A stretch of 64,000 nucleotides of DNA, taken from Promethearchaeota archaeon. Its GTDB lineage: Archaea; Asgardarchaeota; Lokiarchaeia; Sigyniarchaeales; SOKP01. Below are positions 8,517 to 45,792 of this stretch, piece after piece. A model generated the notes under the pieces. It saw only the letters and a program-made list of their open reading frames with translations, ran no database searches and had not been told where the DNA came from. The stretch is taken from positions 64,001 through 128,000 of the forward strand of contig JBHLON010000002.1 of the NCBI GenBank assembly GCA_048940445.1, read 5' to 3'. Every line of letters begins with the position of its first letter. Position 1 is the first letter of the stretch. The translations under genes were made by a program, and so were the position numbers.

Positions 8517-9853
8517 AATACTTCCGAATCTAAAACAATGGTATCTTTTCTTTCAGGACCAATTGAAATCATTGAAATGTTCGTTTGTAATTCTTCTTTA
8601 ATCGATTGAAGATATGCTTTCATAGTAGCTGGTAATGAATTGTATCCTTTCCTTGCGATTTCTGACCATTCCTCTCTCGATCTTTTATCCCAACCCTCAA
8701 ATTCTTTATATATGGGGGCAGATTTTTCAATTATTTCATGATGAATTGGCCAACTTTCTAAAATCTTTTCATTCAACTTATATCCAGTACACATCTTAAT
8801 TGGATTAATTCCTTCAAGAACATCAAGAAGAGTAATTATTACTTTATCTATCCCATTGAGCATTATTCCATATTTAATATTAAAAAGATCAATCCAGCCT
8901 ACTCTTCTAGGGCGTCCAGTAACAGTTCCATATTCATGCCCTTGTTTTCGAATAATTTCCGCAATATCACCAAAAAGTTCTGTTGGAATTATTCCTTCCC
9001 CCACTCTTGAAGTATATGCTTTAATAATTCCATAGATTTTACCCAATTTCTTTGGTGGAATCCCAGAGCCTGCACTAATTCCGAGAGCATTAGCATTCGA
9101 TGATGTCCCATATGGATACATCCCATGATCTAACCCTAATAAATTTCCCTGAGCTCCTTCAAAAAGAACTTTCTTTCCTGCATTAATTTCCTTATTAAGA
9201 TAGTAAGCTGTATCAATTACATAAGGTTTTAGTCGTTCACCGTAATCCTTGTATTCTTTATAGATTATTCCTATGTCCATGTCCCAGTTTGGGTCGTAAA
9301 CGTTAATCAAGGCTTTTTTTATTTTGAAAAGTTTTTCTAATTTAGATTTTAATATATCGGGATTGATTAAATCAAATATTCTTATACCCCATCTAGCAGC
9401 TTTATCGGCGTAAGCGGGACCAATTCCTCTTTTGGTAGTACCAGCGCTATATTCTCCTTTACTTTCTTCCTCTAAACCATCTAGGATACGATGAAAAGGA
9501 AAGATTACATGTGCAGTTGAACTTAACTTTAAATTTATTTTTTTATTTAAATTTTTTAAGTTATCAATTTCCTCCAAAAGAACCTTTGGGTCAACAACAA
9601 CTCCATTTGCAATTACATTCTCTTTTTCTAATGGAGCACCAGAGGGCATCAATTTGAATTTATATTTAATTCCATCAGCAACAATTGTATGTCCTGCATT
9701 GTTACCACCATTGTATCTTACGACTATATCTGATCTTTGAGCTAAGAAGTCAACAAACTTACCTTTTCCTTCATATAGGGTTAAGAGCATCCTGCATCAT
9801 TAATCTCCCCAACTTAGCCCAATAACAGCAATTGTGTTTACTTTATTGTCCAT
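8513..9853 (-). CDS. purA: Adenylosuccinate synthetase; two exons (9853-9805 and 9774-8513), 436 aa after splicing
   Basis: Exon 1 [16 protein letters not shown] joined to exon 2 gives WGDEGKGK; [33 protein letters not shown]. Confidence 0.95.
9775..9804 (-). other. 30-nt BHB/BHL-type mRNA intron in purA
   Basis: ATTAATGATGCAGGATGCTCTTAACCCTAT; helix GGGG/CCCU, bulges AG|A and AU|A, UUAA/UUAA stem; two in-frame stops; removal restores GDEGKGK. Confidence 0.85.
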
Positions 9854-10000
9854 AATTCAAATCTAATTTAGTTTAAATTTGATTTAATATCAAAAATCTA
9901 GTCCAAAATTGATTATTCTTTAAGATTTAAAAAGTTTTTAGTCTCTTCATTATCAATACAATAATTTTTAAATAATAATTTTCTTGAAGTTTATAGAAAA

Positions 10001-10879
10001 ATGTTGGAAAGAACAATTCTTTTTGATTTATTTCACAATGAAATGTTAAATATTGAAGATAAGGATTTTTCTAATTTCTTAAATTTGCTTAAACAGTTTA
10101 ATTTAAAAATTAAAAAGAACGATACAAAAAGTTTAACAATAAAAGCTTTAGAAAATATAGATATTTTAGTCATTGGAAATCCTATTGATGACTATTTCTC
10201 AAATATAGAAATAAAGGATATTAGTGATTTTGTCAGAAGTGGTGGCTCGTTATTATTAATTAGTGAATATGGAGCAGACTATCTTCAGAAAACAAATTTA
10301 AATGATATTTCTGGTTCAAATTATGGGATTTTTTTCCAAAAAAATCTGGTTAAACAATTAAGTATTACTGACCAAAAAGATTCAAGTATAATAAACGTAA
10401 CTAATTTTAGGAGTGATGAGATTACTAATAATTTACGAGAAATAGTAATTGGAGGATCTTGTTCTTTATTATTAAATAAAAATGCCATCCCATTATTAGA
10501 ATCACGTGATCAGCACATATGGACGGAAGTATTTAAAAATTCAAAAGAAGAATGGGTTAAGGATAAGGAAGAACAACAAATTTTAGCTTCTTATACAGAA
10601 TCTGGGCAAGGAAAGGTCGTTGCCTTAGGTGATATTGACATTTTTACAAACGATAATAATATCGGAATTAATGCTTTAGATAATTACATCTTTATACAAA
10701 ACATTTTAAATTGGCTCACTAAACCCGTAAAAGAATCTAATGTCTTTTCATATGTTTTAAATCAAATAGGAATTTTAGAAGGTAAAATCAGGGAATTAAA
10801 TTTGACAATTAATAATTTGATAGAAACTATAACTATTTTAGAAAAAAGAATTTCCCATTTAGAAGAAGAACATCATTAA
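10001..10879 (+). CDS. GIFT (GldG/IFT52)/DUF4350-like domain protein with C-terminal coiled coil
   Basis: ILFD..H.E, DILVIGNP, DFVRSGGSLLLISEYG, GKVVALGD..IF.N; recognised by eye. Confidence 0.7.
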   Translation: MLERTILFDLFHNEMLNIEDKDFSNFLNLLKQFNLKIKKNDTKSLTIKALENIDILVIGNPIDDYFSNIEIKDISDFVRSGGSLLLISEYGADYLQKTNLNDISGSNYGIFFQKNLVKQLSITDQKDSSIINVTNFRSDEITNNLREIVIGGSCSLLLNKNAIPLLESRDQHIWTEVFKNSKEEWVKDKEEQQILASYTESGQGKVVALGDIDIFTNDNNIGINALDNYIFIQNILNWLTKPVKESNVFSYVLNQIGILEGKIRELNLTINNLIETITILEKRISHLEEEHH

Positions 10880-10996
10880 ATTGTACGTCCAGATTTATTT
10901 ATTATACTAAAATTAAAAACATTTCACAAAATAAATCTAAAATTTCTTTAATTATATTTTATTACTCTTTTTTATTAAAAGACAATAGATGTTATT

Positions 10997-12379
10997 ATGA
11001 TTGAGAACTCTTATGATGAAATTTTCTCTCTTTTTGAAGAAATCTCAAATGGATTTAATCGTAAAAATCAATATTTTGATCTCTTATATGACTCTATGTC
11101 ATCCACGCAAATATTTAAAACACCTTCTACTGAAGATATTTCTGTTAACAAAAAAACTTCTGGTATTGTTGCTCGAACTTTTTTAGGATCTTGGAAAGAG
11201 ATAAGCTTCGATAATCTTTCAGATATTAATATAATTCAAAAGAGAATACCAAGAGTCGCAAATATGGGAGAAAAGATTGCTCAATTTGAAAGCTGGAGAT
11301 TAAATAAAGAAATAATCCCTAAAATCGATCCTTCTACGATTCCGATACAAGATAAAATAAAAAGAGTTAGAGAGATTTATGACTATGTAAAAAATTTTGA
11401 TGAAAGAATTGTAAAAGTAGAAATTAGATACCTTGAATTTCTATTAGAAAGAATCTTTTCTAATAATGAGGGATGTCTCTTAAGACAAGTAATTCCAAGA
11501 CTTAGACTTTTTATTTTCCCAATAGCAAAAGAAGGGAGTGTTATTGATTTCGATTATTATGTTAAAAGCCAAGAAACCGGTTATGAAATTTTTAATGAAA
11601 TCAATAATGAAAAATTAGACGAAATCGCCCAAAATTCAATAGATATGTTAACTGCAAAAACACCGCCTAGTGGGAGATTTCCTGTAATCCTAGATCCTGG
11701 TATGACAGGAATTACAGCCCATGAAAGTTTTGGACATGGTCTTGAGGCTGATCAAGTTTTAAGGGAGAGAAGTTATCTAAAGAAATATTTGAATAAAAAG
11801 GTTGCTTCAACTATATGTAAAATATACGATACTCCTTCACTAAACGGGCCAATAGGATCCTATTTTTTTGATGATGAAGGTATTCGAGCTGGTAAAAATG
11901 TGTTAGTAGAAGATGGAATTTTAAAAAATTTTATATATGACAGAAGAACTGCTTCTGAATTTAATGCTATACCTCAGGGAAATGGACGAAGAGAAAGTTT
12001 TGCCCATCCGATAAATGTGCGTATGTCAAACACATACTTTGAGGCTGGAGATTATTCTTTAGAAGAGATGATATCTGAAATAAGTAAAGGTGTAATACTG
12101 ATACATGGCTACTTTGGAATGGAAGATCCTATAGGTGGTGGTATGCAAAGCACTTCTAAAAAAGGATATTTAATAGAAAATGGAGAAAGAACAAAATTAT
12201 TAAGGAAAATCGCATTAAGTGGATCTGTCTTAGAACTTTTACAGAATATTGATGCTATTTCAAAAGATAATATTAAATTAGATGGAGGCACTTGTGGTAA
12301 AGGTAGTGAAGATTATGTACCTGTAGGTTCTGGTGGAAGTTATATTAGAATCAAGAACGCAATCATAAGTCAAGGGTGA
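10997..12379 (+). CDS. tldD: TldD metalloprotease subunit
   Basis: HESFGHGLEAD, GNGRRE, RMSNTY, GTCGK. Confidence 0.9.
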   Translation: MIENSYDEIFSLFEEISNGFNRKNQYFDLLYDSMSSTQIFKTPSTEDISVNKKTSGIVARTFLGSWKEISFDNLSDINIIQKRIPRVANMGEKIAQFESWRLNKEIIPKIDPSTIPIQDKIKRVREIYDYVKNFDERIVKVEIRYLEFLLERIFSNNEGCLLRQVIPRLRLFIFPIAKEGSVIDFDYYVKSQETGYEIFNEINNEKLDEIAQNSIDMLTAKTPPSGRFPVILDPGMTGITAHESFGHGLEADQVLRERSYLKKYLNKKVASTICKIYDTPSLNGPIGSYFFDDEGIRAGKNVLVEDGILKNFIYDRRTASEFNAIPQGNGRRESFAHPINVRMSNTYFEAGDYSLEEMISEISKGVILIHGYFGMEDPIGGGMQSTSKKGYLIENGERTKLLRKIALSGSVLELLQNIDAISKDNIKLDGGTCGKGSEDYVPVGSGGSYIRIKNAIISQG

Positions 12380-45202: not shown

Positions 45203-45303
45203 GGGTATAATAGAAAGCTAAATTTTTTAATAATCTTTTTTTCTTCCACTTTTGCCACTTTTATCCTAAAAAAAAAGAAACAACCCTACTTAATTTTAAA
45301 CCG

Positions 45304-45412
45304 AAAAAGCCCTTAAATGGAGCAGTTGCTTGGAGGAGTCTTATCGTTATGAATAGAGATCAAGAGATAAGGATCGTATTTCGTGAATTTATTAATAATT
45401 TTATTAAGTACC
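45304..45412 (+). pseudogene. Orphan pirin 3'-end fragment
   Basis: KPLNGAVAWRSLIVMNRDQEIRIVFREF vs KPLREPVAWRGPIVMNTDEELKIAFREF in 42595-43458. Confidence 0.8.
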
Positions 45413-45513
45413 AATTATTAGATATAATCTAAAAAAATATTAGGTGCAATTCTTTTTAATTCGTAATAAATATTAATTATAAAATCAAAATAAATAGAGA
45501 AAAGTAATCGGAA

Positions 45514-45792
45514 ATGTCTGAAGAGCCTCAGTTCCCTGATATACCGGACTTTAAAGAACGTTCCGTTCTTTAACTGGACATTGGGGAAATAGATAGAAAA
45601 GATAGGTTCATTCAAAAGAAGACAACAGTTATTAAATGTAGAGAGTGCAAGGCAAGGATGGAACGCCCTTTCAAAGCAGGAGACTATACCTTTAAAACCC
45701 TAACTGATGAAGAATGTGAGAAATGTCGCAGTAAAATGTCAACTATAGAAGAGATCTATGCTGAATGGGTAGATCCTAAAAAGATCAAATAA
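45514..45792 (+). CDS. Small Zn-ribbon protein; two exons (45514-45549 and 45580-45792), 82 aa after splicing
   Basis: MSEEPQFPDIPD|IGEIDRKDRFIQKKTTVIKCRECKARMERPFKAGDYTFKTLTDEECEKCRSKMSTIEEIYAEWVDPKKIK. Confidence 0.8.
45550..45579 (+). other. 30-nt BHB mRNA intron
   Basis: TTTAAAGAACGTTCCGTTCTTTAACTGGAC; helix CCGG/CUGG, bulges AC|U and AC|A, perfect 10-bp intron stem, exon stem UUCCCUGA/UUGGGGAA; in-frame TAA. Confidence 0.85.

What the first reader, a model, noticed from the sequence alone, without database searches (positions are those of the whole stretch)
9775..45579. Family of uniform 30-nt BHB micro-introns in protein-coding genes (candidate Asgard mRNA-splicing system)
Seen: two unrelated genes 36 kb apart, on opposite strands, carry inserts of exactly 30 nt with the same layout: N-TTAA-[15 nt hairpin]-TTAA-[4 nt complementary to exon positions -6..-3]-NN. 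purA: A TTAA TGATGCAGGATGCTC TTAA CCCT AT. Zn-ribbon gene: T TTAA AGAACGTTCCGTTCT TTAA CTGG AC. The inner sequences differ but both fold back, so structure and length are conserved rather than sequence. Both lie in the first 50 nt of the CDS. The two TTAA put a stop in frame for phase-1 (purA) and phase-0 (Zn-ribbon) insertions, so unspliced mRNA is dead although the length is a multiple of 3. Established: the archaeal tRNA-splicing endonuclease EndA cuts BHB motifs after the second bulge nucleotide and RtcB ligates; mRNA introns of this type are known mainly from crenarchaeal cbf5. Inference: two in 64 kb suggests many genome-wide, that is, routine endonuclease-dependent mRNA splicing in a close relative of eukaryotes, possibly a post-transcriptional switch or a spreading minimal element. 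I cannot confirm whether this has already been described.
Basis: partly seen in the sequence, partly recalled or inferred. Interest (0 to 1): 0.96.

Follow-up and report, generated by a model that had tools for sequence, protein, structure and literature searches.

The report
tRNA-type mini-introns in Asgard protein genes
Two protein genes in this Loki-type Asgard archaeon, and about ten more elsewhere in its genome, several of them essential and single-copy, are broken by roughly 30-base inserts shaped like tRNA introns, so their messenger RNAs very probably have to be cut and rejoined by the tRNA-splicing enzymes, which papers I could search show inside the coding part of only one archaeal gene (cbf5).

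Summary
Both 30-nt inserts are real. The purA insert splits the catalytic Asp codon. It occurs at the same site in 9 genus genomes and in further contigs as 30-, 31- and 32-nt alleles. Only removal at the tRNA-endonuclease (bulge-helix) register restores WGDEGKGK, and the stems show compensatory changes. The zinc-ribbon insert was seen only in this genome.

A motif-free comparison of 962 genes with a relative found six clean ~30-nt inserts, all BHB-shaped (chance about 1.6% each). With motif-level cases the list is 12, including single-copy metRS, dnaG, mevalonate kinase and fwdA, and an Lsm gene. The genome encodes a two-subunit EndA with the broad-specificity loop, plus RtcB.

Not supported: a uniform 30-nt TTAA-N15-TTAA family. 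TTAA is incidental, lengths run 21-37 (mostly 30-32), and the introns share no sequence. What is conserved is the geometry and an A at the first position of both bulges.

Splicing itself is inferred; no RNA run was listed. The scan has noted such introns in other Asgard genomes. I found no paper on them. Verdict: new variant of cbf5-type mRNA introns.

The parts
9805..9853 (-). purA (adenylosuccinate synthetase) exon 1: 16 codons plus the G of the catalytic Asp codon
   Evidence: aligns to the N-terminus of intact orthologues
9775..9804 (-). purA 30-nt intron, phase 1, in-frame TAA; relaxed bulge-helix motif
8513..9774 (-). purA exon 2, intact, single copy in the assembly
   Evidence: PF00709 E 2e-150; one match in G000; synonymous differences exceed non-synonymous about 2:1 against intron-bearing relatives
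9807..9810 (-). exon strand (GGGG) of the 4-bp central helix; followed by the bulge AG|A
9777..9780 (-). intron strand (CCCU) of the central helix; followed by AU|A, the 3' cut
9813..9822 (-). exon-1 arm of a distal 10-bp exon-exon helix; invariant, silent positions included, in the 30-nt alleles
9737..9746 (-). exon-2 arm of the distal exon-exon helix
45514..45549 (+). zinc-ribbon-like gene (82 aa after splicing, two CxxC pairs, Asgard family without Pfam) exon 1, 12 codons
45550..45579 (+). 30-nt intron, phase 0, in-frame TAA; 10-bp intron stem; central helix CCGG (45544-45547) with CUGG (45574-45577)
45580..45792 (+). zinc-ribbon-like gene exon 2; 45580-45588 pairs with exon-1 45532-45540 (9-bp exon-exon helix, BHL-like 3x2 loop at the 3' cut)

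Best explanation
The two inserts are pre-mRNA introns of the archaeal tRNA type. The transcript folds so that exon bases -6..-3 pair with intron bases -6..-3 (4-bp central helix), an intron hairpin closes a 3-nt bulge at the 5' site, and an exon-exon helix (adjacent in the zinc-ribbon gene, distal in purA) holds the 3' site. The genome's two-subunit EndA cuts after the second nucleotide of each bulge and RtcB joins the exons. Unspliced RNA ends at a stop. These are two of at least 12 such introns in this genome. They form a class defined by structure (4-bp G/C-rich helix, A at bulge position 1, hairpin, mostly 30-32 nt), not a sequence family, and they are gained and lost patchily among Lokiarchaeia. 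SHOWN: the inserts, empty alleles, geometry, register, covariation, and presence of the enzymes. INFERRED: cleavage by EndA, ligation by RtcB, splicing in vivo.
For: (1) 13 distinct purA alleles of 30, 31 or 32 nt all give WGDEGKGK when cut at the BHB register (three more). In the 31/32-nt alleles the invariant Asp codon (or the reading frame behind it) exists only after precise joining. (2) The central helix is kept in these alleles (4 of 4 bp in 11, 3 of 4 in 2), and the inner stem swaps pair types (A-U to G-C, U-A to A-U): 57 of 65 cells paired against 46 after arm swapping, 0 of 5000 swaps as high (kin not independent). (3) Motif-free spliced alignment of 962 G008 proteins found six clean 30-32-nt inserts in conserved motifs, all meeting the helix plus stem rule, which random coding sites meet 1.6% of the time. 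Four clean ordinary in-frame indels did not. (4) The first bulge base is A in 23 of 24 sites of the 12 introns, 11 of 12 in the motif-free six (P about 1e-4). EndA holds the first bulged base by cation-pi stacking (PMC12397907). (5) The mevalonate kinase intron is in 17 genomes, 28-31 nt, with a C-G to U-A double change across the exon-intron helix; 83% of cells paired against 41-49% when slid. (6) Frameshifting inserts break the only metRS (32 nt, 3 genomes), dnaG (37 nt) and mevalonate kinase (31 nt) found in this assembly. (7) Exon-exon duplex is stronger in intron-bearing purA alleles (median -15.8 against -10.1 kcal/mol) and in the zinc-ribbon gene (-16.5 against -5.6 to -8.0). (8) Two EndA genes and RtcB. 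The alpha subunit's best solved relative is the crenarchaeal-type chain 3p1z_B (A. pernix from my recall) and it keeps the broad-specificity loop with its Lys (PMC5829648).
Against: Motifs are relaxed, not canonical. The purA region is not more stable than shuffles. Covariation in the mevalonate kinase alignment does not beat column shuffles (34-55 of 500), and the seven 30-nt purA alleles show no double change. A structure-only genome scan does not separate true sites from background. The BHB rule used for the 1.6% figure was set after the six inserts were seen. The zinc-ribbon intron has one allele only.
Confidence: 0.88

Rival explanations
1. Translational recoding: the ribosome reads through the stop, hops over the hairpin (T4 gene 60 or mitochondrial byp style), or restarts at an AUG inside the insert.
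For: Hairpins follow the 5' junction. The zinc-ribbon insert has matching GAC codons before and at its end. The window's purA insert holds an in-frame ATG, and public gene calls start there.
Against: purA alleles of 31 and 32 nt shift the frame, and most change the codon at the junction to Val, Ala or Gly. The landing side offers Tyr or Asn, never Asp. No stop follows the zinc-ribbon take-off codon. The internal start is absent in many alleles and would lose the catalytic Asp. Readthrough would put 10 residues into the P-loop. Recoding does not explain an exon-intron helix or the bulge A.
Confidence: 0.04
2. The inserts are inactivating lesions and the genes are pseudogenes, or their products are dispensable.
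For: Every one except fwdA intron 1 stops or shifts the frame. The assembly is 93% complete, so an intact second copy could be missing.
Against: purA exon 2 has no further lesion in any intron-bearing genome and diverges mostly at silent sites. metRS and dnaG are essential by established knowledge and are split in 3 and about 19 genomes. The inserts keep their pairing while changing sequence.
Confidence: 0.03
3. The inserts are removed precisely, but not by EndA/RtcB: excision at DNA level (TTAA-flanked miniature transposon or IES-like element) or another nuclease-ligase pair.
For: TTAA arms in the two window inserts; short direct repeats at some junctions (2 nt in purA, 4 nt in the zinc-ribbon gene).
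Against: Empty sites contain no TTAA. Ten other introns have no TTAA and no shared ends. No copies elsewhere in the genome. The cut register and bulge geometry match EndA rules.
Confidence: 0.04
4. Assembly or sequencing artefact.
For: Metagenome-assembled genome. The zinc-ribbon insert was seen in this genome only.
Against: An independent assembly is identical. The purA insert occurs in more than 20 loci of different assemblies with diverged sequences.
Confidence: 0.01

Closest known systems
cbf5 pre-mRNA intron of Desulfurococcales and Sulfolobales (Watanabe 2002; Yokobori 2009, PMC2738675)
   Same: Short (16-44 nt) intron in a coding sequence, relaxed BHB, cut after the second bulge base by a two-subunit EndA, patchy among relatives. 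It sits between the first and second base of a catalytic Asp codon, exactly as in purA here.
   Different: One gene only in that lineage, with splicing shown by cDNA and in vitro cleavage. Here at least 11 unrelated genes in one genome (two introns in fwdA), a narrow 30-32-nt mode, an Asgard host, and no RNA proof yet.
Noncanonical tRNA introns of Asgard archaea (bioRxiv 10.64898/2026.10.13.758758)
   Same: Repeated gains, BHB boundaries, relaxed motifs, two-subunit EndA, no shared sequence families. This genome's tRNA genes also carry short introns, some in the D-arm.
   Different: That census covers tRNA genes only; its text has no occurrence of 'mRNA' or 'cbf5'. Here the host RNA is an mRNA and an exon-exon helix stands in for the tRNA body.
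HVO_1309 5'-UTR BHB intron of Haloferax volcanii (PMC7714728)
   Same: An mRNA substrate of the splicing endonuclease, shown in vivo and in vitro.
   Different: Lies in the untranslated leader and does not break a reading frame; single case.
Translational bypass elements (T4 gene 60; Magnusiomyces mitochondrial byps) - from memory
   Same: Short hairpin-forming inserts of about 30-50 nt in coding sequences.
   Different: They need matched take-off and landing codons and are not excised; not met for purA.

Membership tests
EndA-spliced BHB-type intron (cbf5 type) | 4-bp central helix between exon -6..-3 and intron -6..-3 | tested here: met
   4 of 4 bp in both window introns and in 10 of 12 in the genome (3 of 4 in metRS and RHH)
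EndA-spliced BHB-type intron (cbf5 type) | 3-nt bulge closed by an intron stem (HBh') | tested here: met
   Unconstrained MFE of helix plus intron gives it for both; register shift 0 is best for mevalonate kinase and metRS alleles
Canonical hBHBh' motif | second 3-nt bulge closed at once by an exon-exon helix | tested here: not met
   purA: no adjacent helix, 10-bp distal helix instead; zinc-ribbon: 3x2 internal loop then 9 bp. Relaxed forms are the rule for cbf5 too
EndA-spliced BHB-type intron (cbf5 type) | cuts after the second bulge base regenerate the homologous reading frame | tested here: met
EndA-spliced BHB-type intron (cbf5 type) | host encodes a broad-specificity two-subunit EndA and RtcB | tested here: met
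   the beta assignment of L062 rests on its Pfam hit and the missing catalytic His (my PDB query for it failed)
EndA-spliced BHB-type intron (cbf5 type) | spliced mRNA or circular excised intron observed | not testable with these tools
   no RNA holder listed, so no run could be laid on the locus
EndA-spliced BHB-type intron (cbf5 type) | cleavage by recombinant EndA | not testable with these tools
   bench experiment
Translational bypass element | stop or unused codon right after a take-off codon that matches a landing codon | tested here: not met
   purA alleles have no matched codon and cannot yield Asp; zinc-ribbon has matched GAC but no stop after take-off
TTAA-targeting miniature transposon | TTAA at the empty site, repeated copies in the genome | tested here: not met
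Group I or II self-splicing intron | ribozyme core of well over 100 nt | tested here: not met
   lengths 21-37 nt

The most novel reading that the evidence does not exclude
Some Lokiarchaeia run a genome-wide, protein-only mRNA-splicing system: tens of length-standardised (about 30-nt) introns per genome, mostly near the 5' end and in active-site codons of core genes, that are still being gained and lost (possibly by reverse ligation of excised introns into G-rich, A-bulged sites) and that tie purine, isoprenoid, primase and MetRS synthesis to EndA/RtcB activity as a regulatory layer.
Probability: 0.3. Interest if true: 0.93.

Novelty: new variant of a known kind. Interest (0 to 1): 0.82.

Why it matters
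In the papers I could search, endonuclease-type splicing inside an archaeal coding sequence is shown for cbf5 only (PMC7714728, PMC2738675). A dozen such introns in one genome, in essential single-copy genes, would make pre-mRNA splicing a routine step of gene expression in close prokaryotic relatives of eukaryotes, by a route independent of the spliceosome. That bears on how interrupted genes and the coupling of transcription to translation looked before the nucleus. It is directly testable: small RNAs, two enzyme subunits, exact predicted junctions. It also matters in practice, because public gene calls truncate these proteins: 32 of the 120 best PurA homologue clusters lack the WGD before EGKGK. 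Marker genes and pathways of Asgard genomes may therefore be mis-scored as broken.

Tried and rejected
TTAA-N(4-44)-TTAA plus helix scan of the genome: no excess at length 15 or at the true offset.

Structure-only de novo scans with an ORF-join filter: they recovered several true cases (mevalonate kinase, uvrA, GH38, RHH) but were not separable from decoy geometries overall (the last timed out before its decoys ran). They were used for leads only.

Candidates at C1:9129-9159 and C99:2350-2381 were dropped: no restored frame, or no homologue. The AIR-synthase-like, Rab-like and longin leads from earlier notes were not located or tested.

RNA evidence: no RNA holder listed. A search for a full-length PurA identical to the spliced product of an intron-bearing allele (possible RNA-derived contig) found none among the hits listed.

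One structure string was mistyped and redone. The careful purA tree did not finish; the quick tree was used. Zinc-ribbon function: no Pfam or named Atlas family.

Seven paper searches found no report of Asgard mRNA introns. The library lacks most subscription journals, so this does not prove there is none.
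Full report
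Setting. The window is G000:C134:64001-128000 of a 3.64-Mb assembly, 93% complete. Homologues named by public sources are Promethearchaeota or Lokiarchaeota, so the host is a Loki-type Asgard archaeon.

Observation. purA (PF00709) starts at 9853 on the minus strand. The insert 9775-9804 falls between the G and the AT of the Asp codon in WGDEGKGK, the catalytic base of the enzyme by established knowledge, and the unspliced frame stops at once. The second gene (45514-45792, plus strand) codes for an 82-aa protein with two CxxC pairs, found in 35 of 36 genus genomes and without a named family. Its insert 45550-45579 is phase 0 with TAA in its eighth codon. Intact orthologues show that both are true insertions. 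An independent assembly of a public run is identical over the purA locus.

The purA intron across relatives. It is present at the same site in 9 of the 36 genus loci whose 5' end I read and in further contigs. Thirteen distinct alleles were compared, three more. Lengths are 30, 31 and 32 nt. All give the same junction when cut two bases after the exon GGGG and two bases after the intron's complementary four bases. In the 31- and 32-nt alleles the frame shifts and most read Val, Ala or Gly at the junction, so functional PurA exists only after exact joining. The central helix is kept, and the intron arms change in pairs (TTAA/TTAA, TTAG/CTAA, TAAG/CTTA). Swapping 3' arms between alleles lowers paired cells from 57 to a mean of 46 of 65 (0 of 5000 swaps; kin are not independent). 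All 18 intron-bearing loci use the Gly codon GGA, which supplies the bulge A, whereas only 16 of 68 intronless loci end in the same six bases. Exon-exon pairing is stronger in intron-bearing alleles (median -15.8 against -10.1 kcal/mol), by a distal 10-bp helix in some and a proximal one in others (lead from e1-5572422). Exon 2 is intact and diverges mainly at silent sites. On a quick protein tree the intron needs 7 changes, at least 2 forced by strong branches, with intron-bearing and intronless sisters. The pattern is patchy, but gain and loss cannot be told apart here.

Is it a family? The TTAA-N15-TTAA pattern is at background. To avoid circularity I aligned 962 proteins of a relative (G008, 2.26 Mb fetched) to this genome with a program that allows any insert of 13-80 nt and knows nothing of structure. 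Clean inserts in conserved motifs were: purA (30), the zinc-ribbon gene (30), fwdA twice (30 with stop; 30 in frame without stop), an Lsm/Sm gene (31; PF01423) and metRS (32; register corrected with orthologues). All six meet a helix-plus-stem rule that random coding sites meet 1.6% of the time over nine registers (rule set after seeing them). Four clean in-frame indels did not meet it, nor did two weakly aligned N-terminal events. The reverse comparison found no convincing case in G008 among 967 genes; introns shared by both genomes are invisible to this test.

Further introns. De novo scans and earlier notes added mevalonate kinase (31), uvrA (31), a GH38 mannosidase (30), dnaG (37), a ribbon-helix-helix regulator (30) and a low-molecular-weight phosphatase (21). 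Each restores a recognisable motif. Of these I checked mevalonate kinase on orthologue DNA (17 genomes with a 28-31-nt insert, 7 without; a C-G to U-A double change across the exon-intron helix). I checked dnaG, fwdA and GH38 on profile tables only. uvrA, RHH and the phosphatase rest on motif continuity. So 12 introns in 11 genes are listed, and 6 per 962 genes extrapolates to about 20. Lengths are 30 (six times), 31 (three), 32, 37 and 21. No two share sequence and none has a copy elsewhere. The first bulge base is A at 23 of 24 sites against a background of 36%, a feature not used to find them. About nine of the twelve lie within the first 50 codons. Within the window, 32 of 61 ORFs were testable and only these two carry inserts.

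Machinery. The genome has two EndA-domain genes and one RtcB. The alpha subunit's best solved relative is chain 3p1z_B (E 3e-38; A. pernix from my recall), and it keeps the N-terminal loop with its Lys that gives broad specificity for relaxed motifs and is reported for Asgard EndA (PMC5829648). tRNA genes here carry short introns, some in the D-arm.

Mechanism. Most likely (0.88) the pre-mRNA folds into a relaxed bulge-helix motif, EndA cuts both sites, RtcB ligates, and unspliced RNA yields only a short peptide. Shown: inserts, empty alleles, register, geometry, compensatory change, enzymes. Inferred: cleavage, ligation, in vivo splicing. Recoding fails on frameshifting alleles and on the missing Asp. 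Pseudogenisation fails on intact, silently diverging exons and on single-copy metRS and dnaG. A TTAA transposon fails on the empty sites. How the introns arise, why they cluster at 30-32 nt, and whether they regulate anything is open. Weak points: no RNA data, purA does not fold better than shuffles, and covariation in the mevalonate kinase alignment does not beat column shuffles.

Comparison with what is known. The closest case is the crenarchaeal cbf5 intron: 16-44 nt, relaxed BHB, also inside a catalytic Asp codon after its first base (PMC2738675). A 2020 paper names cbf5 as the only earlier mRNA example and adds a 5'-UTR intron in Haloferax (PMC7714728). Yokobori et al. note that introns in other protein genes had been predicted but not confirmed. 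An October 2026 preprint on Asgard tRNA introns does not mention mRNA. Seven searches found no report of Asgard mRNA introns, within a library that lacks most subscription journals. This scan has noted such introns in this and other Asgard genomes, two with claimed RNA-derived spliced contigs. I did not check those RNA claims and do not count them as evidence.

Verdict. Observation confirmed. Interpretation partly supported: BHB-type mRNA introns, many per genome, yes; uniform TTAA family, no. It works like a cbf5-type intron and meets every sequence-level membership feature of the relaxed class; the RNA-level features are untested. New variant of a known kind; interest 0.82.

Noticed in passing
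G000 C26:3313-3343 (-), outside the window: An Lsm/Sm-family gene (PF01423) is split by a 31-nt frameshifting BHB-shaped insert; the G008 orthologue is intact.
   Followed up: partly
G000 C47:63579-63608 and 64002-64031 (+): The only fwdA found carries two 30-nt inserts, one in frame without a stop. G017 and G029 appear to carry only the stop-bearing one (match span +30 nt, one TGA).
   Followed up: partly
L217-L219 (G000 C10:14382-14413): metRS 32-nt frameshifting intron just before the HIGH-type motif, shared by G000, G017 and G019 and absent from 26 other loci read.
   Followed up: yes
L247-L276 (G000 C78:74261-74291): Mevalonate kinase intron in 17 genomes, including G005, G016 and G064, which lack the purA intron; different introns have different distributions within one genus.
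   Followed up: yes
G008 loci L064-L183: No convincing BHB-shaped gene-breaking insert in 967 G008 genes, against 6 in 962 for G000: intron load seems to differ strongly inside the genus.
   Followed up: partly
P0019-P0138: 32 of the 120 best PurA homologue clusters lack WGD before EGKGK; most are gene calls that start inside the insert. The three looked up (L357, L359, L360) carry the intron.
   Followed up: partly
G000 purA, fwdA intron 1 and Lsm introns: All three use a G-rich exon strand paired to intron CCCU and begin with AU, though their middles differ; possible preferred target site or shared origin.
   Followed up: no
window 17398-19646 (-): A XerA-like tyrosine recombinase gene lies directly upstream of cdc6 on the same strand, separated by a very AT-rich 130-nt gap.
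   Followed up: no
window 10001-10879 (+): A GIFT-domain (IFT52-like, PF23355) gene is divergent from purA; the same neighbour is seen in L357, L358 and L360.
   Followed up: no
window 22801-30790 and 39386-42425: Glycyl-radical PFL-like enzyme, H+-pyrophosphatase, and divergent dnaK and grpE; ordinary genes, no inserts seen where testable.
   Followed up: no
G000 whole assembly: ARAGORN finds only 21 tRNA genes, several with odd anticodon calls that look like unrecognised D-arm or multiple introns.
   Followed up: no
L316:589-591: An intronless purA has TAG in place of the Ser codon three codons before the catalytic Asp; nonsense change or sequencing error.
   Followed up: no
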